Below, in pieces: positions 14,144-32,000 of a stretch of 32,000 nt of DNA; positions within the stretch are counted from its first letter, which is position 1; each line of letters starts with the position of its first letter. A model generated the notes under the pieces. That model had not been told where the DNA came from. It ran no database searches and saw only the letters and a program-made list of their open reading frames with translations. The DNA comes from Paracoccus suum (GTDB lineage: Bacteria > Pseudomonadota > Alphaproteobacteria > Rhodobacterales > Rhodobacteraceae): assembly GCF_003324675.1 (NCBI RefSeq), contig NZ_CP030918.1, positions 2,130,001-2,162,000 of the forward strand. The letters are read 5' to 3'. The translations under genes were made by a program, and so were the position numbers.

Positions 14144-14198
14144 CAATGACTGGAGAGGCGGGTCCGCCCGCCTCTCTCCCTCTGCGGGAGGCTATCAC

Positions 14199-14435
14199 AT
14201 GAAGAAATCCACATACATGGACCGGGCGATGCGGGCCAAAGACCCGCGCTTCGCGGCCATTCTCGGCAAGCTGGGCTATGAGCGCACCGACCTGCGGGCT
14301 GACGACGCCGCGGAAGCTGAGGCGAAGGAACTGGCTCAGCTGCGTGATCGGTACCAGGAAATTGTTGGCAAGCGTGCTTATCACGGCTGGAACGCCGACA
14401 CCCTGCGCGAAAAGATTGCCGAGGCGGCGGAATAA
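14199..14435 (+). CDS. Hypothetical small protein (78 aa) between the capsid and portal genes
   Basis: GGGAGG RBS upstream of the ATG at 14199. Charged and helical-looking. The rest of the 13863..14435 ORF overlaps the capsid gene out of frame and is discounted. Confidence 0.55.
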   Translation: MKKSTYMDRAMRAKDPRFAAILGKLGYERTDLRADDAAEAEAKELAQLRDRYQEIVGKRAYHGWNADTLREKIAEAAE

Positions 14436-14437
14436 TC

Positions 14438-15805
14438 ATGGCTCTTTGGGGATTGTTCGGGCGGCAAGAAAAGGCCGTCTCCGCATCACCAGTCCCCACG
14501 GGCCGTGGCAGCGGCTGGTTCACCGTTCTCGAGGCGAACTCGGGCAATTGGCAGCGCAATGTCGAAGTCGACTATGACGGCGTCCGTGCGTTCCATGCGG
14601 TCTACGCCTGCATGACGCTGATTGCGTCGGACATTGCCAAGCTTCGGGTGAAGCTGGTGCAACAGGATAACAGTGGCGTCTGGTCCGAGATCGACAGTCC
14701 CGCCTATTCGCCGGTTCTGCGCAGGCCAAACCACTTCCAGAACCGCATTCAGTTCTGGGAGCATTACATGCTCTCGAAGCTATCCACCGGGAACGTCTAT
14801 GTGCTCAAGCGGCGCGACAATCGCGCGGTGGTCACGGCGCTTCACGTGCTCGACCCGCGCCGGGTTACGCCGCTCGTCACAGACACTGGGGACGTCTACT
14901 ACCAACTCGCAGCCGACAATTTGGCGGGGCAAGAAGGCGACGTTGTCGTGCCGGCATCCGAGATCATCCACGACCGGATGAACACGATCTATCATCCGCT
15001 GGTCGGCACCTCGCCGATTCACGCGGCTGGTCTGGCCGCGATGCAGGGCATTCGGATCCAGACCAACTCGACCAACTTCTTCGCGAACGGGGCCCGGCCG
15101 AGCGGCATCCTGACTGCCCCCGGCGCCATCAGCGATGAGACGGCCCAAAGGCTCAAGGAGCACTGGGAGAGCCGCTACACCGGCGACAACGCCGGTAAAG
15201 TCGCGGTGCTCGGGGATGGGCTGAAATACGAGCCGATGACCATGACGGCGAGCGACGCTCAGATGATCGAGCAGTTGAAGTGGACGGCGTCGGTCATCTG
15301 CAGCGTGTTCCACGTTCCGCTCTACAAGGTGGCCATGGGCGAGGGACAACCGAACTATAACAACGTCCAGAACCTGAACGTCGAATATTATAGCCAGTGC
15401 CTGCAGCAGCACATCGAGGCGGCTGAACTGTGCCTGGACGAGGGATTGGGCCTGGACGCCTATGTTGGCGACCGGATCGGCACCGAATTCGATCTGGACG
15501 GGCTGCTTCGAATGGACAGCAAGACCCAGATGGAGACCTTGGCCGAGGCCAAGAACCTGATGACGCTGAACGAGCGCCGTCGCCGGATCGATCTACCGAA
15601 GATGGCAGGTGGAGACACGGTCTACCTGCAGGAGCAGGATCACAGTCTCGATGCGATCGCAGCACGGGACCGCGCGCTAATCGAGGGCCCGCCGCCCGCA
15701 CTTCCGACGCTTCCGCCCCCCGACGAAGGGGACAAGGGCGTGCCTCTGGCGCTCGCTATCCGTGCTCTCACTCACAAAAGGACGGCGCCCGATGCTCGAC
15801 AGTGA
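14438..15805 (+). CDS. Portal protein (HK97 family)
   Basis: 455 aa. VRAFHAVYACMTLIASDIAKL, FFANGARPSGILT and QLKWTASVICSVFHVPLYKV match conserved blocks of HK97-type portals. Confidence 0.9.
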   Translation: MALWGLFGRQEKAVSASPVPTGRGSGWFTVLEANSGNWQRNVEVDYDGVRAFHAVYACMTLIASDIAKLRVKLVQQDNSGVWSEIDSPAYSPVLRRPNHFQNRIQFWEHYMLSKLSTGNVYVLKRRDNRAVVTALHVLDPRRVTPLVTDTGDVYYQLAADNLAGQEGDVVVPASEIIHDRMNTIYHPLVGTSPIHAAGLAAMQGIRIQTNSTNFFANGARPSGILTAPGAISDETAQRLKEHWESRYTGDNAGKVAVLGDGLKYEPMTMTASDAQMIEQLKWTASVICSVFHVPLYKVAMGEGQPNYNNVQNLNVEYYSQCLQQHIEAAELCLDEGLGLDAYVGDRIGTEFDLDGLLRMDSKTQMETLAEAKNLMTLNERRRRIDLPKMAGGDTVYLQEQDHSLDAIAARDRALIEGPPPALPTLPPPDEGDKGVPLALAIRALTHKRTAPDARQ

Positions 15806-16793
15806 ATCCGTCGCTGCCGCGATGCTGGATGCCACCGAGGCCCTGATCGCGAAGCATCTGTCGCCCGTCCTCAAGGAAAACGAGGGGCTGCGGCAAGCGA
15901 ATGCCGCGTTGGTCGGACGGATCGCAGCGCTGGAGGCTGCGGCAGGCGACGATGGCTTGTCCGAGGTCCGTGGAAAGATCAATGAAATGGACGCCGCGCT
16001 CAAGCGTCTGGGCGATGCTGAGCCAGCGGTCACGTTGACCGAGATCAAGGGGTGGATCGCAGAAAGCACCGCTGCTGCCGTTGCAGCGCTGCCACCGCCA
16101 GAACCGGGCTTAGATGGGCTGAACGGCCAAGACGGCACCAGTGTCGACTTGGGAGATGTCATGCCACTGCTTACAATGCAGGTGCAGTCATTCTTGGAGG
16201 CCCTACCTCTCCCGGAGGACGGAAAAGATGGCGAGCCCGGTCGAGACGCTGATCCCGCCGAGGTTGAGCGGCTCGTAGCCGAGGCGGTCAGCAAGGCGGT
16301 GGGAGCGATCACGGTGAAGGATGGCTCGCCCGGTAAGGACGGCGTAGGCCTGGCGGGCGCGCTGATCGATCGTGAGGGCTGTTTGGTCGTTACGCTGACC
16401 AACGGAGAGACAAGAAGCCTAGGTCGCGTTGTCGGCGAGCCGGGGCGCGACGGCCAAGACGGTCTCGGCTTTGATGACTTGACCCTCGACTACGACGGTG
16501 AGCGGACCATTACCTTCCTGTTCCAGAAGGGCGAACGGATCGAGGAGCGTCACTTCGTGGTGCCGGTGGTGCTGGATCGCGGCGTTTACGCGCCGGGCGC
16601 GGGTTATCAGAAGGGCGACAGCGTCACCTTCGGCGGCAGCGTATGGATCGCGCAACGAGAGACAAAAGCGCGGCCGGACGGTTCCAGCGATTGGCGCCTC
16701 AGCGTGAAGAAGGGCCGTGACGGCAAGGACGGCGTCGCAAAGGCGCCGGCCGATCGCAGCCCGCTAAGGGTCGGAGGCGGGAATGCTGATTGA
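15792..16793 (+). CDS. Collagen-like (short G-X-Y run) structural protein with a C-terminal CBM5/12-like motif; possible head fibre or decoration protein
   Basis: Five short G-X-Y runs (GLDGLNGQDG, DGKDGEPGRD, DGSPGKDGVG, GEPGRDGQDGLG, GRDGKDG). The N-terminus is coiled-coil. The C-terminus reads YQKGDSVTFGGSVWIAQRET. AAGGA RBS; start overlaps the portal 3' end. Confidence 0.6.
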   Translation: MLDSESVAAAMLDATEALIAKHLSPVLKENEGLRQANAALVGRIAALEAAAGDDGLSEVRGKINEMDAALKRLGDAEPAVTLTEIKGWIAESTAAAVAALPPPEPGLDGLNGQDGTSVDLGDVMPLLTMQVQSFLEALPLPEDGKDGEPGRDADPAEVERLVAEAVSKAVGAITVKDGSPGKDGVGLAGALIDREGCLVVTLTNGETRSLGRVVGEPGRDGQDGLGFDDLTLDYDGERTITFLFQKGERIEERHFVVPVVLDRGVYAPGAGYQKGDSVTFGGSVWIAQRETKARPDGSSDWRLSVKKGRDGKDGVAKAPADRSPLRVGGGNAD

Positions 16794-19969: not shown

Positions 19970-20169
19970 GGTTTAGCCAGCTGTACGGGATCGGGGCCGT
20001 GATGGGCTGGGGACCTTGTCAGACCGGACTTTGCAGCCTCTGGGAACTGGCGGCGTCGTGGGACGTGTACAGCCGCGCCAATGGCTTCAAGCCCGGCTCG
20101 GGCAGCAACACATCGGCGGACAGCCTGACCGAGGCGCAATTGCGCGCGATGGGAATTGAGGGATTCTGA
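19601..20169 (+). CDS. Tail assembly chaperone, -1 frameshift fusion product (GT-like, about 189 aa)
   Basis: After a slip at 19912-19918 the reading continues from 19918 in the frame of ORF 19702..20169. The extension (...GAVMGWGPCQTGLCSLWELAASW...LTEAQLRAMGIEGF) resembles the GTA g10.1 / rcc01693-type chaperone family. It ends at TGATG, overlapping the tape measure start. Confidence 0.65.
19912..19918 (+). promoter_or_regulatory. Programmed -1 ribosomal frameshift slippery site G GGA AAG
   Basis: Zero-frame codons are CCG GGA AAG (P-G-K of ...DDMPGKQ...), which is the X XXY YYZ phasing. The heptamer is identical to the lambda G/GT slip site. The -1 frame stays open from here to 20169. Confidence 0.7.
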
Positions 20170-23054
20170 TGGCTGAACCTGATCTCGTCCTAGACGTCGG
20201 CTTTTCCGCGTCCAAGCTAGCTGCTTCGGTGCAGCAGGTCGTCAGCAAGTACAAGGCGGCAGGTGAAGCGGCGCAGAAGGCGTTTCAGGACTCGACGGGG
20301 GCCGTATCGAACAGCCAGGCCGCCCGGGCGCACGCGCGTGAATTGGACGCGCTCAAGCGCGCCTATGACCCGGTCTACGTCGCCACGAAGAAATATGAGG
20401 CCGAGGTCCAGAGGCTCAATCTCGCACTGAAGAACGGCGCCATCGGTAGCCGTCTTTACGCTGAGCACATGAAGCGCGCGACCGTCGAGATGGGGACGGC
20501 TGCCGGGATCATCCAGAAAACCACCGCGCGCGCGCAAGGCGGGGCAGACGGCTTCCGCAACCTTGGTTTCCAGGTGCAAGACTTTGCGGTTCAAGTGGGG
20601 GCTGGTACGTCCGCCAGCCAAGCCCTTGCGCAACAGTTGCCTCAGCTTCTGTCAGGCTTTGGCGCGCTGGGGATTGGCATGGGGACGGCAGCCGCCATCC
20701 TGATCCCGGTCGGCCGCGCTCTTATAGGTCTCGTGCGCGACACCGACACGCTTGAGGAGAGCCTGAAGGCTCTCACGACATCGACCGATGACATGGTTGC
20801 ATCTGCGGAGAACGCCTCCCGTCCGATTTATGAATTGCAGACTGCTTTCGGTGGCCTCGCTGATGAAATCGCGCGAGCAGATCAAGCGCAGGCCATGTTC
20901 GCGCGCATCCGCGCGGAGAACGATCTCTCGGGTGCAGCAAAGAAAGTCGGACAATCGGTTGGCTACGACACGAGCCCACAGCCTGTGAAGGTGTGGACGG
21001 GATCGGGATACACCGAAATCGAGGCTGCCAGTATCGCGCAGCAGGCCGATGCGATGGATAACCTGCGCGAAAAGACCGGGGCGACCGTCCCTCAGGTCGA
21101 GGCCTTGAGCCAAGCCATGAAGCGGCTCGCCACGGCCAACAGCGCGTCCGCCTATGCGAAGGAAGCCGCCAACCTTCAGATTGTTCTGTCCGACATTGCC
21201 GGAAACGCCAAGCTTACCGAAGGCCAGATGGAAAACCTCAACACTCTCGTCGTCGAGGCCGGCGCAATCCGCACCCAAGCCGAGCGGCAGGTTGCTGCTG
21301 TGATGGGCGAGACGCAGAAGATCATTGACAAGTTCGCTGGGAAGACCCGCGAACTAATGGACCTGGCGCGGCAGAAGGGCGTCGTTGACGAGCAACTCGA
21401 AAAGGCACGCAAGAGCGGCAACACCGCGCTCGTCGCCCAGCTCGAAGAGGTCGCGCTGAACATCGACGTTCAGATCGAAAAGACGCGCGAGCTAGGCCGA
21501 GTGAGCGATGAAGTGTTCGCGCAGATGGCGAAGGCCATCAACTCGACCCTCGGGGCATCTGCCTCCAATGGCCTGAGCGCGCTCAGCGACAAGCTGGCGA
21601 ACATGGGCGCGCCCTTTGCGACCGAGATGGCGACCGTCGCCAAAGAGGTGGAGGCGGCCAATCAGAGCCTGCGCGAGCTGATCAAGCTGAAGGAGAGCGG
21701 TGGCAACTATAACGCCACCCTCGACAACGGCCAGTGGACCGGCGGTCCCAAAGACCTGATCAACATGACGTTGAATGAGGTCCGCGCGCTTCAGAACCAG
21801 ATGCTAGCGAACCCGGCGAACCGGGCCAAATACGGCAACGGCAAGGGGTCCTCGGCTCTCGGGGCTTACCAGATCGTGGGCCAGACGCTCGAGAGCCTGA
21901 TCAAGGAACTCGGGCTGACCGGGAACGAGCTGTACGACCAGAACATGCAGGACCGCATGGCGGACCAACTGATCCGCCGGCGTCGCGGACAGGGCTTGCC
22001 CGGCCTGCGGAACGAATGGACCAGCCTGCATAATGTGGGCGACCCGATCATCGAGCGCGCTATGGGTGCGCAATCGACCCCCTTGATCGACCCCGAGGTG
22101 GCAGCGAAGCGAAAGAAGGATCTGGACGAGGAAATCCAGAGGCGAAAGCAACTTGCCGATCAGGTCACGCAGTATGCGGAGCAGCTTTCGTCCTCCTACG
22201 TCACGCAGCAGAAACAGGCCGAGGAAGAGAAGAAACGCGCCGACGCGGTGGCGCGGATCAATGCGAGCAATCTGTCCGAAGCGGACAAAGCCGCGGCCAT
22301 CGCCGAGGTCAACGGCGAGATGCAGAAGCAACTGACGATCTTCGCGCTGATGGAGGAGGCCAAGCGTCGGCAGGTGAGCCTCGACGCCATGATGACCGAT
22401 GGCAGCATGACCTACAAACAGGCGATCGAGGCGCTTGGCGAGGGCAAGAAACAGCAGATCATCATCGACCAGCAAGTGCAGTCGGCGCAGCAGAAAGCGG
22501 CCGAGACACAGGAGTTCTGGAACGGCGAGCAGAGGAAGTTCCAGGACGGTTTGGTCGATGCTATAGTCGCCGGCGCGAGTTTCTCCGATATGCTGAAGAG
22601 CATCGCTCAGGACATTGCCAAGGCGGCGCTTCAAGCGGCGTTGTTCGGTCAGGGACCGATGTCCAGCGGGGGCGGCGGGCTACTGTCCGGGCTGTTCTCG
22701 ATGTTTGGCGGCGGCGGGGCTGTGCGCGGCAACGACGCCCTTTCGCAGGCGTTGCGCGGTGCGATTGGCTTCAGGGCCAGCGGCGGCCCGATTAACGCCG
22801 GTGCGCCCTACGTCGTCGGCGAGCGCGGTCCTGAGCTGATCGTTCCCCGACTGCCAGGCACCGTCATTCCGAACCACAGGCTGGGCGGCAGGAGCAGCAA
22901 CACGATCACTTTCGCGCCGGTCATCCATGCCAATGGCGCCGTGTCTCAGACGGACCTCGACATGGCCAAGCGCCAGATGGCGGAGTTCATGCATCGCGAG
23001 TTCGTTCCGATGCTGCGACAGAGCATGCCTGAATTCAACGCGCGGTATGCCTGA
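20169..23054 (+). CDS. Tape measure protein with an internal lysozyme / lytic transglycosylase-like domain
   Basis: 961 aa, Ala/Gln-rich and helical, with a Gly-rich C-terminus. An internal block at about 21680-21990 reads KESGGNYNATLDNG...SSALGAYQIVGQTLESL (catalytic E-S plus a GxYQ-type muramidase motif). Confidence 0.85.
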   Translation: MAEPDLVLDVGFSASKLAASVQQVVSKYKAAGEAAQKAFQDSTGAVSNSQAARAHARELDALKRAYDPVYVATKKYEAEVQRLNLALKNGAIGSRLYAEHMKRATVEMGTAAGIIQKTTARAQGGADGFRNLGFQVQDFAVQVGAGTSASQALAQQLPQLLSGFGALGIGMGTAAAILIPVGRALIGLVRDTDTLEESLKALTTSTDDMVASAENASRPIYELQTAFGGLADEIARADQAQAMFARIRAENDLSGAAKKVGQSVGYDTSPQPVKVWTGSGYTEIEAASIAQQADAMDNLREKTGATVPQVEALSQAMKRLATANSASAYAKEAANLQIVLSDIAGNAKLTEGQMENLNTLVVEAGAIRTQAERQVAAVMGETQKIIDKFAGKTRELMDLARQKGVVDEQLEKARKSGNTALVAQLEEVALNIDVQIEKTRELGRVSDEVFAQMAKAINSTLGASASNGLSALSDKLANMGAPFATEMATVAKEVEAANQSLRELIKLKESGGNYNATLDNGQWTGGPKDLINMTLNEVRALQNQMLANPANRAKYGNGKGSSALGAYQIVGQTLESLIKELGLTGNELYDQNMQDRMADQLIRRRRGQGLPGLRNEWTSLHNVGDPIIERAMGAQSTPLIDPEVAAKRKKDLDEEIQRRKQLADQVTQYAEQLSSSYVTQQKQAEEEKKRADAVARINASNLSEADKAAAIAEVNGEMQKQLTIFALMEEAKRRQVSLDAMMTDGSMTYKQAIEALGEGKKQQIIIDQQVQSAQQKAAETQEFWNGEQRKFQDGLVDAIVAGASFSDMLKSIAQDIAKAALQAALFGQGPMSSGGGGLLSGLFSMFGGGGAVRGNDALSQALRGAIGFRASGGPINAGAPYVVGERGPELIVPRLPGTVIPNHRLGGRSSNTITFAPVIHANGAVSQTDLDMAKRQMAEFMHREFVPMLRQSMPEFNARYA

Positions 23055-23725
23055 TGGCAGTGATCGTATGGCCCGCCGGGCTTCTGCGCCCGGTCGAGGG
23101 CTCGTTCTTCATCCGCAACATCAGCCGGTCAGGCGGGGTGTCGCTGAATGGCGTGGAGCAGGTCCTGACCAGCACAGCGTCGTGGTGGGAGATTTCCCTG
23201 ACGCTCAGCCGGGAGTTCGACGGGGAGCGGCTCAAGGCGTTCGAGGCGTATATCTCGCGGATGCGCGGCCGACAGAACGTCGCCGCGATCCCGCTCTGCG
23301 ATCCTTACCGATACGGCGCGAAAGTGTCGCCACTGCAGCAGCCGTGGTCAGACGGGACGTATTTCAGCGATGGGACAGGGTGGGTCGACGGCACCGCAAG
23401 CCAGCCCATGACGGTCGTGAACGCGGCCGGCGTCGGCTCGCGGTTTCTGACATTCAAGTTGACCCAACCTGTCAGGCCGGCACTGCGCCTCGGCGACATG
23501 TTTTCTATCAACGGGTTCCTGTATCGGGTCACTTCTGCGGGCGGAAACGATATCTATTTCGAGCCTCCTTTGCGGCAAGCGATCCCGGCAGGACAGGTAA
23601 TCCAAACCGACCCCCCTGTATTTTATGGCCGGTTTGCCACGGACGACGAGGGCCGGAGGTCGCGCGAGCTGATGCGCTGGGGCGGTCAAACGACCCTTAC
23701 CCTCATTGAGGCATTCGACCGGTAA
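23054..23725 (+). CDS. Putative distal tail protein (GTA g12 position)
   Basis: 223 aa, immediately after the tape measure gene with a TGATG overlap. Assignment is positional. Confidence 0.55.
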   Translation: MAVIVWPAGLLRPVEGSFFIRNISRSGGVSLNGVEQVLTSTASWWEISLTLSREFDGERLKAFEAYISRMRGRQNVAAIPLCDPYRYGAKVSPLQQPWSDGTYFSDGTGWVDGTASQPMTVVNAAGVGSRFLTFKLTQPVRPALRLGDMFSINGFLYRVTSAGGNDIYFEPPLRQAIPAGQVIQTDPPVFYGRFATDDEGRRSRELMRWGGQTTLTLIEAFDR

Positions 23726-24312
23726 TGGCCTTCACCCCTGCGCAGGTGGACCTGCTCGACAGCAACCGCGAGATGGTCGAGGTGCGGCGCCTGTTCACTG
23801 TCGCGTTCAAGAGCCAGACCTTCCGCTTGGTGGATGACGTGATTGCGCGGACCATCGGCGGCGAGACCTATCAGCCGGCGTTCGGGTGGCTGGAAGCCGG
23901 AGCAATCAATCGCGGCGCGGTGCTCGACGCGGAACCTGCCATCTATCGGGTGACGTCGCTGGGGCCGGACACCCCCGGCGAGTTCGCCTCGCTGATGATC
24001 GCGGCCCTGCATGACGAGGCAGAATGGCGGGCGGCCAAGGCGACCTATGCAGTGCAGTTGCTCTTGGACGGCGCCGCAGTTGGCCCGGCCATCGTCATGC
24101 ACACTGGATGGATCGCCGACATCAAGCCTGCGGAGAGCGTGGCGCAGGCGGGCCTGACGATCCGTGTCGAGAGCAACCTCGCCCGGCGCAACTGGACCCC
24201 GCTTGGCGAATATACCGACCGCGACCAACAGGCCCGCTACCCCGGCGACAAGGCGATGCAGTTCGTGGCCTCGCTCAAAGACAAGGTGATTACCGGATGG
24301 CTGAAGGGCTGA
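23725..24312 (+). CDS. Putative tail hub component (DUF2163-like, GTA g13 position)
   Basis: 195 aa with a TAATG overlap. FRLVDDVIARTIGGETYQPAFGW resembles the DUF2163 'fdG.tY.p' core. Confidence 0.55.
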   Translation: MAFTPAQVDLLDSNREMVEVRRLFTVAFKSQTFRLVDDVIARTIGGETYQPAFGWLEAGAINRGAVLDAEPAIYRVTSLGPDTPGEFASLMIAALHDEAEWRAAKATYAVQLLLDGAAVGPAIVMHTGWIADIKPAESVAQAGLTIRVESNLARRNWTPLGEYTDRDQQARYPGDKAMQFVASLKDKVITGWLKG

Positions 24313-24671
24313 ACGCTTATTTGGCCCGGACATGGGATCGCCCATTTGTCTGGGGCGAGTGCGACTGCACGCTCTGGGTGGCCGACTGGTGCGCCGAGCG
24401 GTGGGGACAGGACCCGGCGGCATCGTTCCGGGGGCGCTACAGCACGCAGGACGAGGCCGAGGCCCTGACGGCAGGCGGGCTGCTGGAAACGATACGCCCC
24501 TTCATGGGCTTCCTGGTCGAGTGGACCGAGGCCAGGCCCGGTGACGTGGGGGTGGTGATGATTGACGGCCGAGAAACCGCCGCGATCCGCACTGAGAACG
24601 GGTGGGCGGTGAAATCGCTGGCCGGCATGGGGGAGGCCAACATGCCTGCCCTCGCGATCTGGGGCAGCTGA
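24297..24671 (+). CDS. NlpC/P60-like tail-associated cell wall peptidase (GTA g14 position)
   Basis: TWDRPFVWGECDCTLWVADW carries the 'W.WG..DC' catalytic Cys context, and RPGDVGVV is the typical 'PGD' strand. 124 aa. Confidence 0.65.
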   Translation: MAEGLNAYLARTWDRPFVWGECDCTLWVADWCAERWGQDPAASFRGRYSTQDEAEALTAGGLLETIRPFMGFLVEWTEARPGDVGVVMIDGRETAAIRTENGWAVKSLAGMGEANMPALAIWGS

Positions 24672-26728
24672 TGCCTCAGGTAGTAGGCACTTGGATCATC
24701 AACGCGGCCGTGGCGTCTGGGGCGCTGGCTAGCGCGACTGGCATTGGAGCGGCCCTCATTTCAGCGGGGGCGGCGCTCGCGTTCAATGCCGCCATCGCGA
24801 AGATATTCGCGCCCAAGGGGCCCAAGCCGAAGGACCTGCAGAACGAGTTGCGCCAGTCCGACGCGCCGCGGGTCCGCTACTTGGGGACAAACCGGGCGAG
24901 CGGTGCCGTGCTGTTCTGGGACTGGCGGTCGGTCGGCTCGAAGCGGGTGCTGTTCAAGCTGATCGCGATTGCACAGGGGGGCATGACGGATGTGCGCCGC
25001 TGGTGGCTGAACGACGTCGAGGTGACCGTCGTCAGCGAGGGCGTGACTGGCGGGATTGGGGATCGGGTGCCGGACTACGGCGGCAACGTCAACCTGCGTT
25101 GGCGCAGCGGCAAGGGCTCGTTCATTGACGGTGGCCAGTATCCGTCGCTGCTCAGCGCGGTGACCGAGTGGACGGCTGCCCACAAGGCGACGCGGGTCGG
25201 CACGATCCTCGCCGAGTTCAAGAGCGTGTCCTCAGAGGATGCGATCGAGGTGTACCCCGGCGGCGAGCCAAAGGTGCTGGTGGAGTTCGACGGCGACATC
25301 GCCAATGCGCCGGGGCGCACCCCCACCCACACTCTAAACTTGGCTTGGCAGCTCTACGACATCATCACGCATGCTGACCATGGTTGGCTGGCACCTTCCG
25401 AGATGGACGATGCCTCATGGGCACTCGCGGTCTCCGACAGTTTCCAGACCGTCCCGTCCGCCGGCGGAACGACCCGCGCACGCTACCTCGGGGGCGGGGG
25501 ATACCAACTGGCCGAGCCGCTCAAGGACGTCGCGCAGCGCTGGCTGGATGGTATGGACGGCCATTTGTTCCTGACCACGGATGGCAAGCTGGGCATGCGC
25601 GTCGGGAAGTGGCGCCCGCCGACCTACACGATCACCGAGGACAAGATTGTCTCCTGGGATGGCGGGTCGGGCCGCGATGGCCTCGACGTGGTGGCGACGC
25701 TGGTGCCCAAGTTCACCAGCCCGGAGAATATGTACCAGGAAACCTCGGCCGACCCATGGGAGGACCCGGTTGCATTGGCCCGCTATGGCGAGGTGGCGCC
25801 CAAGGAGATCGACCTCCCCGTTGTCCAGCATCACGGCCAGGCGCGGCGGATCGCCAAGCGGCGCGCGGCGGCGATGAACCCGAAGTGGCGGTTCACCATC
25901 AACCTGCGCTTCTGGGGACTGCTGCTCTACGAAGAGGAAAACGTCTATCTGCACATGCCGCGGATCGGCATCAACAACCAGCCGTTCGCGATCCGGCGCT
26001 GGCAGTGCGACATGAACGGTGGCGATCAGGTCGTCACTGTGACGCTCGAGCACGTCCGGCCTGAGGCGGATGATTGGACGGCTGCTGAGGAAGGCACCGC
26101 ACCAGTGGCCGCGAAGGCAACGCCGGGCCCGAAAGTGGTGCCAACCATAAGCATCATCTCGACAACCGTCGTGACCGGGCTCGGCTCGCCCTACGTCCGG
26201 ACCACATTTACCCAGCCCGCAGGGGAATCGGTCATCGGCCAGTATCGCCGCGCAGGCTCGGTCGATCCTTGGACGGAGATGATACGCGAAGGGACGGCGG
26301 GCGGCGTCATGCGCACGCAGGCCCTGTTCGATCGAGAGCCGATCGACATGCGGTTCGGCGTCCGCCGGGCATCCTGGGGGACTGCCATTGTGGGCACATG
26401 GACCGAGGTGAACAACATCGAGGTCGTGGCGAACGGCACGCCGCCCGCTCCGCCGACGGTGGTCAGCTGGTCCGGCGGCATCGGGACGGCGGTCTCGGTC
26501 ACGTTCCGGCCCGATCTGGGGGCCAACTACAGCCGCACGAGCCTCTATCGCGGCGAGCCAGATAGCGCTTTCGCTTCGGCCGCTCAGATCGCGACTACCT
26601 ACGCCACTGGCGCCGAGGTGACTATTGGCGGCGGCACCGTCCCGACCGGCGGGGCAAAATATTGGTTGCGGTCCGAGAACGCCAGCAACGTGGCATCGGC
26701 CGAAGTGCTGGTCGCCAATATCTCCTGA
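24671..26728 (+). CDS. Tail tip / host specificity protein (lambda J / GTA g15-like)
   Basis: 685 aa. The N-terminal stretch is hydrophobic and Gly/Ala-rich, followed by a central J-like block (RVRYLGTNRASGAVLFWDW...LFKLIAIAQG). Follows the peptidase gene, as in GTA-type tails. Confidence 0.7.
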   Translation: MPQVVGTWIINAAVASGALASATGIGAALISAGAALAFNAAIAKIFAPKGPKPKDLQNELRQSDAPRVRYLGTNRASGAVLFWDWRSVGSKRVLFKLIAIAQGGMTDVRRWWLNDVEVTVVSEGVTGGIGDRVPDYGGNVNLRWRSGKGSFIDGGQYPSLLSAVTEWTAAHKATRVGTILAEFKSVSSEDAIEVYPGGEPKVLVEFDGDIANAPGRTPTHTLNLAWQLYDIITHADHGWLAPSEMDDASWALAVSDSFQTVPSAGGTTRARYLGGGGYQLAEPLKDVAQRWLDGMDGHLFLTTDGKLGMRVGKWRPPTYTITEDKIVSWDGGSGRDGLDVVATLVPKFTSPENMYQETSADPWEDPVALARYGEVAPKEIDLPVVQHHGQARRIAKRRAAAMNPKWRFTINLRFWGLLLYEEENVYLHMPRIGINNQPFAIRRWQCDMNGGDQVVTVTLEHVRPEADDWTAAEEGTAPVAAKATPGPKVVPTISIISTTVVTGLGSPYVRTTFTQPAGESVIGQYRRAGSVDPWTEMIREGTAGGVMRTQALFDREPIDMRFGVRRASWGTAIVGTWTEVNNIEVVANGTPPAPPTVVSWSGGIGTAVSVTFRPDLGANYSRTSLYRGEPDSAFASAAQIATTYATGAEVTIGGGTVPTGGAKYWLRSENASNVASAEVLVANIS

Positions 26729-26742
26729 TCACGAGGGAAACC

Positions 26743-29112
26743 ATGGCATTTACCTACACCCCCCCTCTGCCCAAGGGGCTGGGGGCAAGCCCCGTTCAGA
26801 AGGGTGATCAGCGCGCTTGGTTCGACCAGATCCGAGCGGCGTTTGATGCGGGCGAGTTCAGCAGCGGTAAAATCTTCGGTTCCCGGCAGTCCGCCATCGA
26901 TCTGGGCCAGGACAAGCTAGCGAGCAACCTCAGGCACATTTTTGTGCTGGAGGACGGCTGGATGACGCTGCGCAGCGCGGGTTCGTCCAGCGCTGACCCC
27001 CTTTTCGGAACATTCCCCAATTGGGGTGTGGTCGACCGTTGGCCCGCGGCAAATGCGCTGTCGACGATCTTGCGCAACGTCGGCATGGTCAATTTGGTGA
27101 ATGTCACCGGGATGGTAGTCGGTACGTCTGCGTCTATCAAAGGCGACTTCCCGGCGGACGTTGCTCAGCTGACGGGCGATGGCATCACGGCCAACATGCA
27201 GATTGGTTTTGTCAGCCCGGTCACCACCACTACCGGCGACGTTACCCTGACGATCGGCTCTGATGCACGAAACCTCCGCCAGGAAAACGGCGACTATTTC
27301 AACGAGAACGTGGGCCTGAAGGCGTACCTTTTCTACGCATTCCGGCGGGCCAGCGATGGCTGGCGCATGATCTATGGCGGGGTTACCGCAAAGGAGGTCA
27401 TCGACCGTGTCGCTGCGGGGGTCTCGGCTGAGGCAACAGCACGAGTGGCATCTGTTGTCGCTGAGGCTGAGGAGCGCCGGAAGATCATCCCTGCGCTTGC
27501 CACGCGAATCACGCGACTTTCCGGGCAGCGGGGAAACCGGATCATCGCCTCAGATGCCTCGGGCAAACCAGTCGTCGCGGCGACACCCACAGGCGAACTG
27601 GAAGCCTTCCTGTCCGAATTCACACGCACTCTGCGCAGCAAAAGGCGGCGCGGATCGCTCACGGATTTCCTCACCGACGGTGCCGGACTGCCGGTCATGT
27701 CTGTGACCGCCAGCGGGGATCCGGTTTTCCGTCTTCTGCCGGATGTCCTCGGGGCGCGGTTCAATCAATCCCGCCGCCGGCGCGGAACGGCCACCGTGAT
27801 CGCCTACCGCGCTGAGGACGAGAAGCCTTTGCTCTGGATCGACACCAAGTTCAGGACAGCTTGGGATGGCGAGACAACTCCGGGAACCCCGCCCGCTAAT
27901 ACCCCGGCGAGCGGGCATACAGGGACCAATGGAACCTGGCCGGATGTTGATGCATGGGATCTGGCGGTGAGTGGTAGCGTGACGCGCTACTCTTCGCCGC
28001 AGCTGCGCGGGGAAACGCGCCGCTACGCAGTCACACCTGCGACGAAAATCAGCATCGCCGAGAGCGATGGCACCGTCATGGGTATCCTCGGGGTCGGGCA
28101 GCCTTGGGCGGCCGAGAGTTCCGGCGATAACCCGTGGCCTTGGCATGTTCTTGGCCTCTCGGGTAGCGACATCGCCCCTGTATCGACCCTAGCGCTTCCT
28201 CAGACCGTTGCTGCTGCAGCCCTCGAGAAGGCGTGGAGGGCGCGAGCGCGGATGCCTGCCTATGTCGCTGATGCCTTGTCCATGACGGCATCCGTGTCGA
28301 CGTGGCAGGGCCCTACGGTCACCAACTGGCTCACCGCATTCAAGAACGCGGTTGCGAAATATGGCGAGGCGGCCGCGCTTCGTTATGCCGTCCTGACCTT
28401 CGGTGCGAGCGACAAGACCGGGGTGCCTGGTTCGCTGGCGCAGTCCATGTCCGCCTTTGTCAAATGGCTCGGGGAGCAGGCCGCATCGATCACCGGCCAA
28501 ACGGCTGCAATGTATGCGCTCTATACGCAGTTCAGCGGCACCCGCACCGACGGTGCATACCAGGGAACCCTAGCGGCGGCTGAGGCTTGGCGCCTCGATC
28601 CTACCGTCGAGATGTGGCCCGTCACGCCGCTCTATCCGTATGCGCTCGCGGCTGGCTCGCCCCATGCCCCCGGAGCCGCTGGCCTGAAGGCCATCGCGGG
28701 CCATATGGTTCTGGCGGCGGAGGCGACGGCCAAGCTCGGGCAGTATTACGCCCCGACCCCGACCCTGGCGCGCCTCGAGGCCGACGGCCGCGTCCGAGTG
28801 GACTTCGACGCAATGTCGAAGCTGCGGAGTGTCAACTACGGTGCGTCTGTTGATGTTGCCGGTTTCGCTGTCGAAGGCGCGACCGTGACGGACGTGACCA
28901 TTGCGGCCAAATCCGCCTTCCTGACCGTATCAGGCACTGTCACCGCGGGCAGCAGCTACGTCACCTACGCCTGGGGGCAGGCCGGCGACAAAGGCGACGG
29001 CTTCACCGCCGCGCGCGGAACTATTTGCGACGGCTATTCGGCCGTCAACCCGCTCGATTCGACGCAGACCCTCACCCGCTACGCCCTGTCCGGGCGGCTT
29101 CAAATCACCTGA
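26743..29112 (+). CDS. Large tail fibre / receptor-binding-like protein (789 aa), function unknown
   Basis: GGGAAACC RBS-like sequence upstream of the ATG at 26743. Uninterrupted 790-codon ORF directly after the host-specificity gene. No confident motif recognised. Confidence 0.6.
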   Translation: MAFTYTPPLPKGLGASPVQKGDQRAWFDQIRAAFDAGEFSSGKIFGSRQSAIDLGQDKLASNLRHIFVLEDGWMTLRSAGSSSADPLFGTFPNWGVVDRWPAANALSTILRNVGMVNLVNVTGMVVGTSASIKGDFPADVAQLTGDGITANMQIGFVSPVTTTTGDVTLTIGSDARNLRQENGDYFNENVGLKAYLFYAFRRASDGWRMIYGGVTAKEVIDRVAAGVSAEATARVASVVAEAEERRKIIPALATRITRLSGQRGNRIIASDASGKPVVAATPTGELEAFLSEFTRTLRSKRRRGSLTDFLTDGAGLPVMSVTASGDPVFRLLPDVLGARFNQSRRRRGTATVIAYRAEDEKPLLWIDTKFRTAWDGETTPGTPPANTPASGHTGTNGTWPDVDAWDLAVSGSVTRYSSPQLRGETRRYAVTPATKISIAESDGTVMGILGVGQPWAAESSGDNPWPWHVLGLSGSDIAPVSTLALPQTVAAAALEKAWRARARMPAYVADALSMTASVSTWQGPTVTNWLTAFKNAVAKYGEAAALRYAVLTFGASDKTGVPGSLAQSMSAFVKWLGEQAASITGQTAAMYALYTQFSGTRTDGAYQGTLAAAEAWRLDPTVEMWPVTPLYPYALAAGSPHAPGAAGLKAIAGHMVLAAEATAKLGQYYAPTPTLARLEADGRVRVDFDAMSKLRSVNYGASVDVAGFAVEGATVTDVTIAAKSAFLTVSGTVTAGSSYVTYAWGQAGDKGDGFTAARGTICDGYSAVNPLDSTQTLTRYALSGRLQIT

Positions 29113-29123: not shown

Positions 29124-29912
29124 ATGGCCACAACGGGCATTCCTCTGAAGGGCGTTACCGTGCCTCCAGGCGTTACCCTACCGATCACTGATTGGGTGCA
29201 GGAGATCGCAAAGATCCCCGACCTGCTAGGTCTTTGGGTTGCCGATGAAGACTACCTCATCCGCAACTCTTCAGGGGGCGTCACCAGCATCCTGCCCGAG
29301 GCGGGGAACACCGCAGTCACCGCGATGGGCACCTCTCTGGCCACGACCTCGCAGTCGACCGCCCTCGGGGATCAGGTGTTCTCGTTCCCGGCCGCATACG
29401 CAGCCTATGGCCGCGTCCCTCTCAAGAGCGCGAGCAAATTCACGATCCTTCAGGTGTGGCGAGTGGAGGCTACGGACACTGTGGACGATCACCTTTTCAC
29501 GGTGACTGGCTCGACGACCGGAGGGGAAAGCTTTGTTCGATTGACTGCGAACGGCGGGCACTTCTGGACAGTCCCGGGCGGCATTTCCGCCGGTCTCGGG
29601 ACGTCAAAGCTTGATATGGCCAAGTGGCATTGCACCCTTCACCGCGCCGACGGAACGGGCTTGAGCACGTTCGACAACGGGGTCAAGGCGAAAGACATCG
29701 CTCCTACGACAACCCCCACAGCAGAGACCGGCCTTGTATCTCTCTGGGCACGGGACGACGCCCCCGCCGCCGGCGGAGCCATCATCCGCGGCTTTGTCGG
29801 ATACTCGCCTCTCTTCGCGGTTTGGGACAGGGCGATAACAGATGCCGAGGCGGCCGCGGCATGGACTGCCGTCCAAAGGATGCACCCGAACTCCGCTGTC
29901 GGGGTCTGGTAA
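29124..29912 (+). CDS. Putative LamG/concanavalin-like domain fibre accessory protein (262 aa)
   Basis: Start is at the ATG at 29124. The beta-rich sequence (...FTILQVWRVEATDTVDDHLFTV...FVRLTANGGHFW...LFAVWDRAITDAEA) resembles Laminin_G_3 lectin folds ending in the typical 'rAlt.aEi' tail. Confidence 0.45.
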   Translation: MATTGIPLKGVTVPPGVTLPITDWVQEIAKIPDLLGLWVADEDYLIRNSSGGVTSILPEAGNTAVTAMGTSLATTSQSTALGDQVFSFPAAYAAYGRVPLKSASKFTILQVWRVEATDTVDDHLFTVTGSTTGGESFVRLTANGGHFWTVPGGISAGLGTSKLDMAKWHCTLHRADGTGLSTFDNGVKAKDIAPTTTPTAETGLVSLWARDDAPAAGGAIIRGFVGYSPLFAVWDRAITDAEAAAAWTAVQRMHPNSAVGVW

Positions 29913-32000
29913 TGCGCCACGTTTTCTCGATCGCGATCGATGACATGGTGAACTACCCGAAATTCGGGACCATGTATGGCGTCGCGCCGATCACACCGGA
30001 GCTCGATGCGTTCACGGCAACGAGCACGCATTTCCCAAATGCCGTTTGCGCGGTGCCCGTGTGCGGGCAGTCCCGCTGGTCGAAGGTTACCGGCTTCACG
30101 CCGGCGGAGAGCGGCATAAACTATAACCAGCCGGGCGTTATTCTGCGGTCACGCGCGACCGACACATACACGTATCTCTGCCGGAAGGCTGGCTTCCAGG
30201 TTGTCTCGGTCGGGAAGTACACCGACGGCCGCCACCAGGCGGCAAACTACAACACGATCGCCTGCGACTATGTCCAAGGCCAGATCAACGACGACCTCGC
30301 GGACGGTATTAGCGTCGATTACGGCGGCATCAACGGCACGGTCAGTCTGAACGACCCGACCGACTATGGCGACCTGAAGGTCGTCCTATGGTGGGAAGAT
30401 TTCCTGCGCAACTACAGCGGCACGCGCCCTCTCATGGGCTGCATGGGGTTGTTCAGGCCGCATGATGATTACGTCGTCCCGGAGTCCTACTACAATCTCT
30501 ACAGCCTCTCGGACTTCACGATCCCTGCCGATCTCACCTCCACCGACTTGTGGTCTTTGCCGCAGGACATCCTGCAATACGAGCTCGGCCGCGCTGCGGC
30601 GCCCGGCGGGGTGATTGATCCTGTCACCCAGGCGGACAAGCTCAAGCGAACCGTTTGGGGTTACTTCGCGGCGCTCAGCTTCACGAGCAACAACTTCGGG
30701 CGTCTCGTCCAGGCGATCGAGGATATGTGCGCGCGCCGCGGCGATGAGTATGTCATTGAGGTCTGGTCCGATCACGGGTTCCACCTCGGGTCGCACTTCC
30801 ATTGGCACAAGCTGACGACGCTCTCGGAGGCGGCAAACCCGCCGGTCTGGTATCGAGCGCCAGGGCAGACCGTAGCGCGCACCGTGCAGCAACCGGTCGG
30901 TTGGTACGACATGTTCCAGACAGTGCTGGACTATGCTGGGGTGCCATCCCCCGCGCGTTCTGTCGGCAAGTCGCTGCGGCCGCTGATCGAGGGGGCCAGT
31001 GCCATCGGCGAATGCTACTCCATCACCGAGGTATTCGGCGGCATGTCGGCGCTTCTCGAAAGCGCGGACGACGGGACATATCAGGCCGGTGGAACACGCT
31101 ACCGCGTTGGGGAGTACCTGTCCGGCGAAACGGTGGTTTTCAACGACAGCACAGACTGGCGCAATATCAAGAACATAGCCGGCCAGAACCCGACCCGCAC
31201 GGCGAACCTGCTGAGCCGGCTCCGCGCGATGGCCGAACAAGGGGGGATGCGCTACGCCAACACACCCGCCGGTGCTGCCCGCCGTCGCGCGACCATGCTG
31301 GTCGGTAACGCTGCGCAGCAGCAGCTCAAGGGAAGCGGCGGCGACGACATCGTTTTCTCCCATGACCTGCTCGGCCCCGGCAGCAACCTCGGGGAGGGAT
31401 GGGATATTCTATGGTGGCTTCCGACCGACGGGGTGGAATTTGTCCTGCCTGAAGGCATCGAGGGCGTCACTCGCGCCTCGGAGAATTTTTGGAAGTCAGG
31501 CAGCAGCACCGAGGCTCTGGCGCGCCTGGTCGCCAATTCGGAAGATAACAGCCTGATCATGGGCTGGGGAGCGAGCGCCACTGTGAGCGCCGGCGCGGGG
31601 GATGACTACGTCGAGAATGCCACCAACGTCGACGGCGGCTTCGGCAACGATCACATCGTCACGCAATGGAAGAACGACACTGTGAGCGGTGGCGAGGGAA
31701 ACGACACAATCGACACGTCAGGTGGGCACGATGCGATTTCCGGCGACGGCGGAGACGACGTCGTTTTTGCCGGGGACGGAAATGATACCATTCGCGGCGG
31801 CGCGGGAAATGACAGCCTGCGGGGAGATGCCGGCAACGACAGCATCAGCGGTGGCCCGGGAAATGACACTCTGCTCGGCGGCGCAGGAATGGATACCCTC
31901 GTTGCGGATGGTGGAGCAGATTTGCTGACCGGAGGCACCGAAAACGACACCTTCGTGATCCTGCGAAACGAACAGCAATCCACCATTACAGACTTTGCCG
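29912..32000 (+). CDS. Sulfatase-family (alkaline-phosphatase superfamily) domain fused to C-terminal RTX calcium-binding repeats; 3' end outside the window
   Basis: Not in the supplied ORF track, because no stop falls within the window. Manual translation from ATG 29912 (TAATG overlap with the upstream stop) gives 696 sense codons with no stop up to 31999. Motifs: SIAIDDM, FPNAVCAVPVCGQSRWSKVTG (sulfatase active-site block), WSDHGFHLGSH, GKSLRPLIEG, then 10 or more GGxGxD nonapeptides. Confidence 0.8.
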   Translation, partial: MRHVFSIAIDDMVNYPKFGTMYGVAPITPELDAFTATSTHFPNAVCAVPVCGQSRWSKVTGFTPAESGINYNQPGVILRSRATDTYTYLCRKAGFQVVSVGKYTDGRHQAANYNTIACDYVQGQINDDLADGISVDYGGINGTVSLNDPTDYGDLKVVLWWEDFLRNYSGTRPLMGCMGLFRPHDDYVVPESYYNLYSLSDFTIPADLTSTDLWSLPQDILQYELGRAAAPGGVIDPVTQADKLKRTVWGYFAALSFTSNNFGRLVQAIEDMCARRGDEYVIEVWSDHGFHLGSHFHWHKLTTLSEAANPPVWYRAPGQTVARTVQQPVGWYDMFQTVLDYAGVPSPARSVGKSLRPLIEGASAIGECYSITEVFGGMSALLESADDGTYQAGGTRYRVGEYLSGETVVFNDSTDWRNIKNIAGQNPTRTANLLSRLRAMAEQGGMRYANTPAGAARRRATMLVGNAAQQQLKGSGGDDIVFSHDLLGPGSNLGEGWDILWWLPTDGVEFVLPEGIEGVTRASENFWKSGSSTEALARLVANSEDNSLIMGWGASATVSAGAGDDYVENATNVDGGFGNDHIVTQWKNDTVSGGEGNDTIDTSGGHDAISGDGGDDVVFAGDGNDTIRGGAGNDSLRGDAGNDSISGGPGNDTLLGGAGMDTLVADGGADLLTGGTENDTFVILRNEQQSTITDFA
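31586..31957 (+). repeat. Tandem RTX (haemolysin-type Ca-binding) nonapeptide repeats, coding
   Basis: SAGAGDDYV, DGGFGNDHI, SGGEGNDTI, GDGGDDVVF, GDGNDTIRG, GAGNDSLRG, DAGNDSISG, GPGNDTLLG, GAGMDTLVA, DGGADLLTG and GTENDTFVI were all read directly in frame. Confidence 0.85.

What the first reader, a model, noticed from the sequence alone, without database searches (positions are those of the whole stretch)
29912..32000. Gene missing from the ORF track: sulfatase-like enzyme fused to RTX repeats, coupled to the tail-fibre operon
The + frame starting at ATG 29912 overlaps the stop of the preceding fibre-module gene (TAATG). It stays open for 696 codons to the window edge. The ORF track shows only a 325-aa antisense shadow here (30386..31363). 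The product carries the sulfatase/alkaline-phosphatase hallmarks: the N-terminal metal ligands DD, the active-site block, SDHGxxxGxH and the GKSLxPL tail. About 11 GGxGxD beta-roll repeats follow. Two things are unusual. First, a sulfatase-family catalytic domain sits at the distal end of a siphovirus tail module, where depolymerases or receptor-modifying enzymes belong. Second, the formylglycine signature C-x-P-x-R reads C-G-Q-S-R, with Pro replaced by Gln. That would be a poor FGE substrate and hints at a different nucleophile or substrate (phosphoester, phosphonate or lipid headgroup). It may be a virion-borne envelope-remodelling enzyme, or a lysogenic-conversion exoenzyme secreted by a type I system through its RTX C-terminus.
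Basis: partly seen in the sequence, partly recalled or inferred. Interest (0 to 1): 0.75.

Follow-up and report, generated by a model that had tools for sequence, protein, structure and literature searches.

The report
Phage tail-fibre sulfatase with RTX repeats
A Paracoccus suum prophage carries, as the last gene of its tail-fibre cassette, a sulfatase-type enzyme fused to calcium-binding RTX repeats; the same three-gene cassette recurs in unrelated phage tails, so these phages probably strip sulfate from the host surface, a chemistry I found no report of in phage tails.

Summary
ATG 29912 overlaps the preceding stop and opens a 696-codon frame that runs off the window. The full protein is 750 aa (Paracoccus suum WP_162784733.1, DRW48_10555). 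It has a significant sulfatase domain (PF00884, E 6e-14; Foldseek E 3e-18 to S1 sulfatases) and an RTX beta-roll (PF00353, 92 bits).

It is a phage gene, not a host gene. Relatives at 28-44% identity always follow the same fibre protein and a ~250-aa protein. They occur in siphovirus-like and P2/Mu-like myovirus tail clusters and in three IMG/VR viral contigs. In one clade an anaerobic sulfatase maturase (TIGR03942) follows directly, so the family depends on formylglycine.

Best reading (0.55): a late-expressed sulfatase, fibre-associated or released at lysis, that acts on a sulfated host surface glycan. Type I secretion as a lysogenic-conversion factor is less likely. Virion presence, substrate and the DNA downstream of the window remain untested.

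The parts
29912..32000 (+). Sulfatase-RTX gene (DRW48_10555; 750 aa in full). The window holds codons 1-696.
   Evidence: Open frame. 100% identical to P0001 / WP_162784733.1. PF00884 plus PF00353. N-terminus aligns with homologues from residue 1.
29912..31240 (+). S1-type sulfatase catalytic domain (aa 1-443). There is no signal peptide and no N-terminal virion-anchor domain.
   Evidence: PF00884 covers aa 14-344. 6HHM aligns to aa 18-425. Foldseek gives E 3e-18 and target TM-score 0.65-0.70.
30062..30076 (+). Formylglycine signature position, reading C-G-Q-S-R (TGC GGG CAG TCC CGC).
   Evidence: Sister clades have CGPSR. More distant relatives have P, A or S at +2.
30215..30232 (+). K102-Y-T-D105-G-R107. 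The active-site Lys is kept. The conserved His that follows it in S1 sulfatases (GKxxH) is replaced by Asp, and the Tyr by Arg.
   Evidence: Alignment to 6HHM shows GKV-YHHG-TD against GKY----TD. The family alignment shows GKxxHGY in distant members against GKxxD[GP]R in the three closest clades.
31241..31525 (+). Family-specific linker (aa 444-538), predicted with low confidence.
   Evidence: pLDDT below 50. The segment is conserved within the family.
31574..32000 (+). RTX nonapeptide repeats forming a beta-roll. They continue beyond the window into a ~60-aa C-terminal cap.
   Evidence: PF00353 in 5 stretches. Repeat positions 561-665. pLDDT above 90 for aa 560-750.
29124..29912 (+). 262-aa partner protein (DRW48_10550), possibly a concanavalin/LamG-like lectin fold. 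Its stop overlaps the sulfatase start.
   Evidence: Weak similarity to the equivalent gene in L085 and L001. The orthologues in L157 and L001 give sub-threshold Laminin_G_3 hits, E 1.7e-4 and 0.015. The single-sequence model failed.
26743..29112 (+). 789-aa tail-fibre protein, the first gene of the conserved cassette.
   Evidence: 34-36% identical to the gene in the same position in L085, L156 and L157, and 28% to that in L158; the L160 counterpart matches L158 and L156. The L085 and L158 orthologues hit phrog_4201, tail fiber.
24602..26728 (+). J-like central tail fibre / tail tip protein.
   Evidence: phrog_5616 at E 4e-79 and phrog_31. Phage-tail_3 is sub-threshold.
20169..24312 (+). Tape measure protein (20169-23054), distal tail protein (23054-23725) and tail protein (23725-24312).
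   Evidence: PHROG hits.
30386..31363 (-). Antisense shadow ORF (325 aa), not a gene.
   Evidence: Listed. Codon-position GC is inverted relative to real genes.

Best explanation
The gene encodes a formylglycine-type (S1) sulfatase domain fused to a Ca2+-binding RTX beta-roll.

Shown:
- It is the last member of a mobile three-gene tail-fibre cassette: fibre protein, then a ~250-aa possibly lectin-like protein, then sulfatase-RTX.
- Phages of Paracoccus and related bacteria carry this cassette at the fibre locus of otherwise different tails.

Inferred:
- It is transcribed and translated with the late tail genes, because start and stop codons overlap.
- It is matured in the cytoplasm by a radical-SAM anaerobic sulfatase maturase. 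In some relatives the phage encodes this enzyme; otherwise the host would supply it.
- It acts outside the cell, either attached to the fibre or released at lysis.
- There the RTX part folds on meeting millimolar Ca2+.
- The enzyme removes sulfate esters from a sulfated capsule, exopolysaccharide or LPS of the host. This would expose or create the receptor, or free progeny. It would be the sulfatase counterpart of tailspike depolymerases and deacetylases.
For: Domains and fold: PF00884 and PF00353, Foldseek to S1 sulfatases, beta-roll pLDDT above 90.

Catalytic residues: D10, D11, C51, R55, K102, H184, D287 and K300 are invariant in the family alignment; H288 is kept in all but two members.

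Phage ownership: the window is a complete prophage structural region, with no GC shift, promoter, terminator or tRNA at 29912.

Conserved cassette in different phage backbones:
- L085/L156: tape measure, fibre, 254 aa, sulfatase-RTX, anSME, further proteins, GH108 endolysin, integrase.
- L001/L157: followed by a 46-aa ORF and, in L001, an endolysin-like gene.
- L158: P. alcaliphilus prophage, upstream of an Amidase_2 endolysin.
- L160/L162: between baseplate J/I plus fibre and sheath, tube and tape measure of a P2/Mu-like myovirus.
- The fibre proteins are homologous across loci.
- Three IMG/VR viral contigs carry family members.

Maturase: TIGR03942 at 429 bits (cut-off 349), 12 bp downstream in L085.

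Selection: dN/dS of 0.06-0.13 within two clades.

Substrate plausibility: a Paracoccus strain is described as producing sulfated polysaccharide (PMC4189415).
Against: - There is no N-terminal virion-anchor domain. The catalytic Asp pair is at residues 10-11.
- Virion association has not been shown for any member.
- This copy reads C-G-Q-S-R, which no characterised maturase is known to accept.
- The His next to the active-site Lys is replaced by Asp in this subfamily, so activity and substrate are uncertain.
- RTX domains are classically type I secretion substrates and are expected to stay unfolded at cytoplasmic Ca2+ levels (established knowledge of RTX proteins, not tested here).
- The P. suum DNA downstream of the window could not be read, so a local maturase or secretion genes are unknown.
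- No sulfated glycan is known for P. suum.
Confidence: 0.55

Rival explanations
1. In this P. suum copy the sulfatase fold is catalytically inactive. With C-G-Q-S-R the Cys is not converted to formylglycine. The protein would then serve only as a binding or structural part of the fibre, a pseudo-enzyme lectin for an anionic glycan.
For: Gln at +2 occurs only in this sequence among 15 family members and 18 other relatives. FGE needs CXPXR, and anSME is documented for SXPXR and CXAXR (PMC2459300). No FGE or radical-SAM gene was found among the window ORFs scanned.
Against: All other catalytic and metal residues are intact. The +2 position is variable (A, S, C) in related, presumably active sulfatases. 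The change is a single CCG-to-CAG step, so it may be recent or tolerated. Unmodified-Cys choline sulfatase has been purified and characterised (title of PMC6189696, listed; paper not read).
Confidence: 0.18
2. It is a lysogenic-conversion exoenzyme. The lysogen would express it and a host type I secretion system would export it through the RTX C-terminus. It would have no role in the virion.
For: RTX repeats plus a ~60-aa C-terminal domain. No signal peptide and no virion-anchor domain. Many leaderless sulfatase-RTX proteins exist, some ending in the DF[IVL]L-type tails that I recall as typical of type I substrates (own knowledge). One sulfatase was already predicted among RTX proteins (PMC3034196).
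Against: The gene start overlaps the upstream tail gene, and no promoter-like site was found. The gene keeps a constant position inside tail morphogenesis clusters, including between fibre and sheath genes of a myovirus. No ABC, MFP or OMP genes are called within 10 kb in L085, L158 or L160. The C-terminal ending (…GVTVA) differs from the DFxL type. Codon composition equals that of neighbouring late genes.
Confidence: 0.12
3. The domain hydrolyses something other than a sulfate ester, for example a phosphonate or phosphate mono- or diester on LPS or lipid headgroups. This would be because the active site is remodelled (His to Asp105, Tyr to Arg107, Pro to Gln53).
For: The GKxxD.R replacement is conserved in the three closest clades. 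Phosphonate monoester hydrolases are among the best sequence and fold matches (4UPK, 2W8S).
Against: The best matches overall are carbohydrate and choline sulfatases. An anSME classed as a sulfatase-maturase equivalog is coupled to a clade with the same Asp105/Arg107 site. However, PMHs also use formylglycine, so this does not discriminate strongly.
Confidence: 0.1
4. It is a host chromosomal gene that merely abuts the prophage end.
For: The window ends inside the gene, so the prophage boundary is not seen.
Against: There is a one-base overlap with the tail gene and no compositional change. Homologues lie inside phage genomes, with lysis genes, integrase or sheath and tube genes downstream. 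Family members occur in IMG/VR contigs.
Confidence: 0.02

Closest known systems
S1 (formylglycine-dependent) sulfatases, e.g. ulvan sulfatase FA22070 (6HHM, S1_7), iduronate-2-sulfatase (5FQL), choline sulfatase BetC (6FNY), carrageenan sulfatase PsS1_NC (6PT4)
   Same: Same fold and Pfam family. Shared features are the N-terminal Asp pair, the Cys in the signature position followed by S-R, the Lys, the PH motif, the DHG motif and the second Lys.
   Different: Only 17-25% identical. It has no signal peptide. Gln replaces Pro/Ala at +2 in this copy. Asp replaces the His that follows the active-site Lys. It is fused to an RTX beta-roll and encoded in a phage tail-fibre cassette.
RTX exoproteins secreted by type I systems (serralysin proteases, Pseudomonas lipases, CyaA RTX blocks)
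   Same: GGxGxD nonapeptide repeats, a confidently predicted beta-roll and a C-terminal cap domain.
   Different: No linked ABC/MFP genes in the relatives examined. The gene is embedded in phage tail operons. The C-terminal ending is unlike the DFxL-type tails seen in other sulfatase-RTX proteins.
Phage tailspike or tail-fibre enzymes that cut or modify surface glycans (P22 endorhamnosidase, K1F endosialidase, O-antigen deacetylase gp63.1 of phage G7C). These examples are recalled from my own knowledge, not tested here.
   Same: Encoded at the distal end of the tail module next to fibre genes. The presumed target is a host surface polysaccharide.
   Different: The fold is alpha/beta sulfatase, not a trimeric beta-helix or SGNH fold. 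The chemistry is sulfate-ester hydrolysis needing a post-translational formylglycine. There is no N-terminal anchor domain. Virion presence is unproven.
Anaerobic sulfatase-maturating enzymes (AtsB / anSME, TIGR03942). This applies to the neighbour gene in relatives.
   Same: The L085 and L002 downstream genes score as equivalogs, with radical SAM plus SPASM domains. They are 54-58% identical to bacterial anSMEs.
   Different: They are phage-encoded and about 355 aa, shorter than the ~410-aa bacterial homologues. The gene was not seen in the window, and it is absent next to the gene in L001/L157, L158 and L160.

Membership tests
S1 formylglycine-dependent sulfatase (PF00884) | Pfam Sulfatase domain above the gathering score | tested here: met
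   52.5 bits against a cut-off of 25, E 6.1e-14, aa 14-344.
S1 formylglycine-dependent sulfatase (PF00884) | Alkaline-phosphatase-like sulfatase fold | tested here: met
   Foldseek E 3e-18 to 6PT4 and 6FNY, and target TM-score 0.70 to 6HHM. The model's core confidence is moderate (mean pLDDT 68.9).
S1 formylglycine-dependent sulfatase (PF00884) | Signature C/S-x-P/A-x-R at the nucleophile | tested here: not met
   The window reads C-G-Q-S-R. Sister clades read C-G-P-S-R. The motif definition is taken from PMC2459300.
S1 formylglycine-dependent sulfatase (PF00884) | Metal ligands (two N-terminal Asp, Asp-His/Asn of the DHG motif) | tested here: met
   D10, D11, D287 and H288 are conserved.
S1 formylglycine-dependent sulfatase (PF00884) | Lys-His pair next to formylglycine (GKxH / GKxxH) | tested here: not met
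   K102 is present. The His is replaced by Asp105 in P0001-P0003 but is present (GKxxHGY) in more distant cassette members.
S1 formylglycine-dependent sulfatase (PF00884) | Second His and Lys (PH motif; K after DHG) | tested here: met
   H184 and K300 are invariant.
S1 formylglycine-dependent sulfatase (PF00884) | A maturase (FGE or anSME) is available | tested here: inconclusive
   An anSME equivalog lies directly downstream in L085 and L002. None was found among the window ORFs scanned.
S1 formylglycine-dependent sulfatase (PF00884) | Sulfate-ester hydrolysis | not testable with these tools
   Needs an enzyme assay.
RTX / type I secretion substrate | Tandem GGxGxD nonapeptides (PF00353) forming a beta-roll | tested here: met
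   92.2 bits in 5 stretches. 9-11 repeat units. pLDDT above 90.
RTX / type I secretion substrate | Linked ABC transporter / MFP genes | tested here: not met
   None within 10 kb in L085, L158 or L160, and none among the window ORFs scanned. Downstream of the window was not readable.
RTX / type I secretion substrate | Functional C-terminal secretion signal | tested here: inconclusive
   The C-terminal 60 aa are predicted to fold as a beta cap. The ending …AIRGVTVA is conserved within the cassette family but differs from the DFxL-type endings of other sulfatase-RTX proteins.
Phage tail-associated glycan-modifying enzyme | Encoded within the tail morphogenesis / fibre module | tested here: met
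   The window and the relatives L085, L156, L157, L158, L160 and L162.
Phage tail-associated glycan-modifying enzyme | N-terminal domain that docks to the baseplate or fibre | tested here: not met
   The catalytic domain starts at residue 2 and the DD motif is at residues 10-11.
Phage tail-associated glycan-modifying enzyme | Physical presence in virions | not testable with these tools
   Needs virion proteomics.

The most novel reading that the evidence does not exclude
A virion-borne sulfatase with a built-in calcium switch. The RTX part would stay disordered in the low-Ca2+ cytoplasm and fold only after lysis. Folding would lock the enzyme onto the tail fibre or the cell surface. The remodelled active site (Asp105, Arg107, and Gln53 in this copy) would target a so-far unknown sulfated lipid or glycan receptor of Paracoccus. 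That would reveal sulfation as a phage-receptor or phage-barrier determinant in Alphaproteobacteria, together with phage-encoded radical-SAM maturation of a structural protein.
Probability: 0.15. Interest if true: 0.85.

Novelty: new variant of a known kind. Interest (0 to 1): 0.62.

Why it matters
Phage tail enzymes known so far cut glycosidic bonds or remove acetyl groups. Searches for five 'phage/viral sulfatase' phrases in the paper library found nothing.

The viral structure library (BFVD) holds sulfatase folds only from giant viruses. The one matching PHROG family is of unknown function.

If these proteins are active, three things follow:
- Sulfated surface polymers are a phage receptor or barrier in Paracoccus and related bacteria.
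- Some phages carry a radical-SAM maturase so that a late tail-module protein can acquire formylglycine.
- The portable fibre, lectin-like protein and sulfatase cassette offers new, secretion-independent carbohydrate sulfatases and a host-range determinant to engineer.

Tried and rejected
- Reading P. suum DNA beyond base 32000 failed. Exact-protein look-ups for P0001, the GenBank variant P0019, the 262/263-aa partner and the 789-aa fibre were all 'not on record'.
- The single genome-contig scan chose generic sulfatase peptides and returned only Planctomycetota, Verrucomicrobiota and similar sulfatases.
- The single metagenome scan was likewise swamped by generic sulfatases.
- A viral scan with the first alignment found nothing. 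A mid-protein alignment and single proteins then worked. The 15-member alignment was too divergent to scan with, and P0001 itself has no IMG/VR relative.
- tblastn against cultured phage genomes gave only four unannotated human-gut contigs at 21-24% identity.
- The anSME search did not surface a P. suum protein among the 120 hits listed, all at 54% identity or more, so this says nothing on presence.
- The 262-aa partner is an orphan in the protein database and its single-sequence AlphaFold model was useless (pLDDT 32). The LamG/lectin idea therefore rests on sub-threshold Pfam hits in orthologues and a non-significant pentraxin hit.
- The fibre protein has no PDB or Pfam match. My guess of an esterase domain is unsupported and dropped.
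- Literature searches for phage sulfatases or RTX tail fibres found nothing relevant.
- The 'host gene next to prophage' reading is rejected on synteny.
Full report
**1. Observation**

The + frame from ATG 29912 is open for 696 codons to the window edge. Its A is the last base of the TAA stop of the preceding ORF.

The protein is 100% identical to a 750-aa Paracoccus suum protein, so 54 codons lie beyond the window. That protein is WP_162784733.1, locus DRW48_10555. GenBank calls a 767-aa variant.

ATG 29912 is the better start, because homologues align from residue 1.

The antisense 325-aa ORF has inverted codon-position GC and is a shadow. 'Missing from the ORF track' only reflects that frames running off the window are not listed.

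**2. Domains**

- Pfam gives Sulfatase (PF00884, 52.5 bits, cut-off 25) over aa 14-344.
- Pfam also gives HemolysinCabind (PF00353, 92 bits) in five stretches.
- NCBIfam gives only partial, sub-cut-off hits to choline, aryl and Mn-arylsulfatase and to PehA. It is therefore no equivalog of a named enzyme.
- The best solved relatives by sequence are the S1_7 ulvan sulfatase 6HHM (E 5e-20), a phosphonate monoester hydrolase, the S1_46 sulfatase BT1918 (7OZ8) and iduronate-2-sulfatase.
- An AlphaFold model was built from a 21-sequence alignment (mean pLDDT 68.9). It has a moderately confident sulfatase core, an unconfident linker (aa 444-538) and a very confident beta-roll plus cap (aa 560-750, pLDDT above 90).
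- Foldseek places the model among S1 sulfatases (E 3e-18; target TM-score up to 0.70).

**3. Active site**

Eight positions are invariant in the family alignment: D10, D11, C51, R55, K102, H184, D287 and K300. H288 is kept in all but two members. Two positions deviate.

- *C-G-Q-S-R.* The Gln is unique to this sequence. The two sister clades have C-G-P-S-R, and more distant relatives have P, A, S or C at that position. According to PMC2459300, prokaryotic Cys-type motifs are CX[P/A]XR. The same source says FGE serves CXPXR, while anSME serves SXPXR and CXAXR. Gln is therefore a likely handicap for FGE. It is not evidence for another nucleophile.
- *The His after the active-site Lys.* Sulfatases carry GKxH or GKxxH here. 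In P0001-P0003 the segment reads GKYTDGR, GKVWDGR and GKVVDPR. More distant cassette members keep GKxxHGY. This His-to-Asp and Tyr-to-Arg change is conserved across three clades that are under purifying selection. It is therefore a real subfamily feature, of unknown consequence.

**4. It is a phage gene**

The window is a prophage. It carries ParB-like, helicase, primase, large terminase, head, portal and neck genes. It also carries the tape measure, distal tail protein and J-like protein.

GC content stays at 0.60-0.67 across the junction. No promoter- or terminator-like site separates the genes, and there is no tRNA.

**5. Relatives and synteny**

The word-indexed search found only two close clusters, at 43% identity and with the same architecture. 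The exhaustive search found about 95 representatives with E below 1e-30. Many of them are leaderless N-terminal sulfatases with RTX repeats.

One subset of 710-765 aa shares the window protein's C-terminal ending (…TxAxVxxAIxGATVA). It includes proteins of P. onubensis, P. alcaliphilus and P. amoyensis.

Every context I could read is a phage tail module:

| Locus | Context |
|---|---|
| L085-L087 | fibre (696 aa), 254 aa, sulfatase-RTX, anSME, 99 aa, 677 aa, small genes, GH108 endolysin, integrase |
| L156 (IMG/VR) | tape measure, fibre, 254 aa, sulfatase-RTX |
| L001 / L157 | fibre, 251/259 aa, sulfatase-RTX, 46-aa ORF, then an endolysin-like gene or a divergent gene |
| L158 / L163 (P. alcaliphilus prophage; also an IMG/VR contig) | polyvalent protein, fibre (985 aa), 248 aa, sulfatase-RTX, small ORFs, Amidase_2 endolysin |
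| L160 / L162 (P2/Mu-like myovirus) | baseplate V, W, J and I, a 339-aa fibre protein, 645 aa, 263 aa, sulfatase-RTX, a 57/58-aa ORF, then sheath, tube, tape measure and a gpD-like protein |

- The fibre proteins are homologous across loci.
- The ~250-aa proteins are only weakly similar to each other. Two orthologues give sub-threshold Laminin_G_3 hits.
- Gene junctions are overlaps of 1-4 bases or, in L158, a 4-base gap.
- Within clades dN/dS is 0.06-0.13.
- The cassette sits on backbones of different GC content and tail type. That is the behaviour of a host-recognition module.

**6. Maturase**

The gene 12 bp downstream in L085 is an anaerobic sulfatase maturase equivalog. It scores 429 bits on TIGR03942 (cut-off 349) and has radical SAM plus SPASM domains. 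It is 54-58% identical to bacterial anSMEs.

Its presence beside a clade that has the same Asp105/Arg107 site argues that the family uses formylglycine. Other clades lack an adjacent maturase. No FGE or radical-SAM gene is among the window ORFs scanned.

**7. Mechanism**

*Shown:* a sulfatase fold with most catalytic residues, an RTX beta-roll, a conserved place in tail-fibre cassettes, coupling to late genes, and a phage-encoded maturase in one clade.

*Inferred:* the protein acts extracellularly on a sulfated surface polymer of the host, attached to the fibre or released at lysis. The RTX part would fold in external Ca2+.

A sulfated polysaccharide is reported for a Paracoccus strain (PMC4189415). 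None is known for P. suum.

*Against attachment:* there is no N-terminal docking domain.

*Type I secretion:* this remains possible, since RTX architecture is its hallmark and a sulfatase was predicted among RTX proteins in PMC3034196. It fits poorly with a slot between fibre and sheath genes and with the absence of transporter genes.

**8. Novelty**

- The domains are known, and the protein is already annotated as 'sulfatase-like hydrolase/transferase'.
- New here is the recognition of a portable phage tail-fibre cassette that ends in a sulfatase-RTX fusion, sometimes with its own anSME.
- Searches for five 'phage/viral sulfatase' phrases in the paper library found nothing.
- BFVD holds sulfatase folds only from giant viruses.
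- The matching PHROG family (phrog_19870) has no assigned function.

I rate it a new variant of a known kind (tail-associated surface-glycan-modifying enzymes), with interest 0.62.

**9. Limits**

- P. suum DNA downstream of base 32000 could not be obtained.
- Virion presence, formylglycine formation, activity and substrate are untested.
- The lectin-like assignment of the partner protein is weak.
- The contexts of the ~100 more distant sulfatase-RTX proteins were not examined.

Noticed in passing
L085:6149-7216 (also L002:2743-3597, L086, L087): A phage-encoded anaerobic sulfatase maturase (radical SAM + SPASM, TIGR03942 at 429 bits) lies 12 bp downstream of the sulfatase-RTX gene. It sits inside the tail module and upstream of a GH108 endolysin and an integrase.
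   Followed up: partly
L158:12229-12396; L160:12271-12444; L162:10259-10435: A 55-58-aa Cys-rich ORF (…GC[TN]C…[GQ]CPLH…) overlaps the stop of the sulfatase-RTX gene in two clades. L158 and L160 are 39% identical. The function is unknown and there is no PHROG hit.
   Followed up: partly
window 30215-30232: The conserved His after the active-site Lys (GKxxH) is replaced by Asp, and the following Tyr by Arg, in the three closest clades only.
   Followed up: partly
window 26743-29112 (C-terminal ~400 aa): The fibre protein carries a C-terminal domain conserved in every cassette (27-36% identity). It has no Pfam or PDB sequence match, and its function is unknown.
   Followed up: partly
window 10486-16793: The head-gene order is unusual. 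The large terminase is followed by a 648-aa ORF that matches both major-head and head-protease PHROGs. Only then comes the portal (14438-15805). A 343-aa ORF (15762-16793) follows; it matches the C-terminal part of a long 'portal' PHROG and overlaps the portal ORF in another frame.
   Followed up: no
L158:1-5806: A 3669-aa polyvalent protein (InPase, LPD1/3/5/39 domains) lies upstream of the fibre cassette, separated from it by a ~0.5-kb gap, in the Paracoccus alcaliphilus prophage.
   Followed up: no
proteins P0156-P0302: There is a large set of leaderless N-terminal sulfatase + RTX proteins of 650-1855 aa. Many end in …DF[IVL]L, which looks like a classical type I secretion tail. Their genomic contexts were not examined.
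   Followed up: no
L156 vs L085: The sulfatase genes are 93% identical at the protein level, but the surrounding contigs differ in GC (0.59 against 0.67). This suggests recent transfer of the cassette between phage backbones.
   Followed up: no
window 8374-9291 (-) and 9353-9772 (+): Two HNH endonuclease genes (PF13391 and PF01844) lie just upstream of the terminase region, one on each strand.
   Followed up: no
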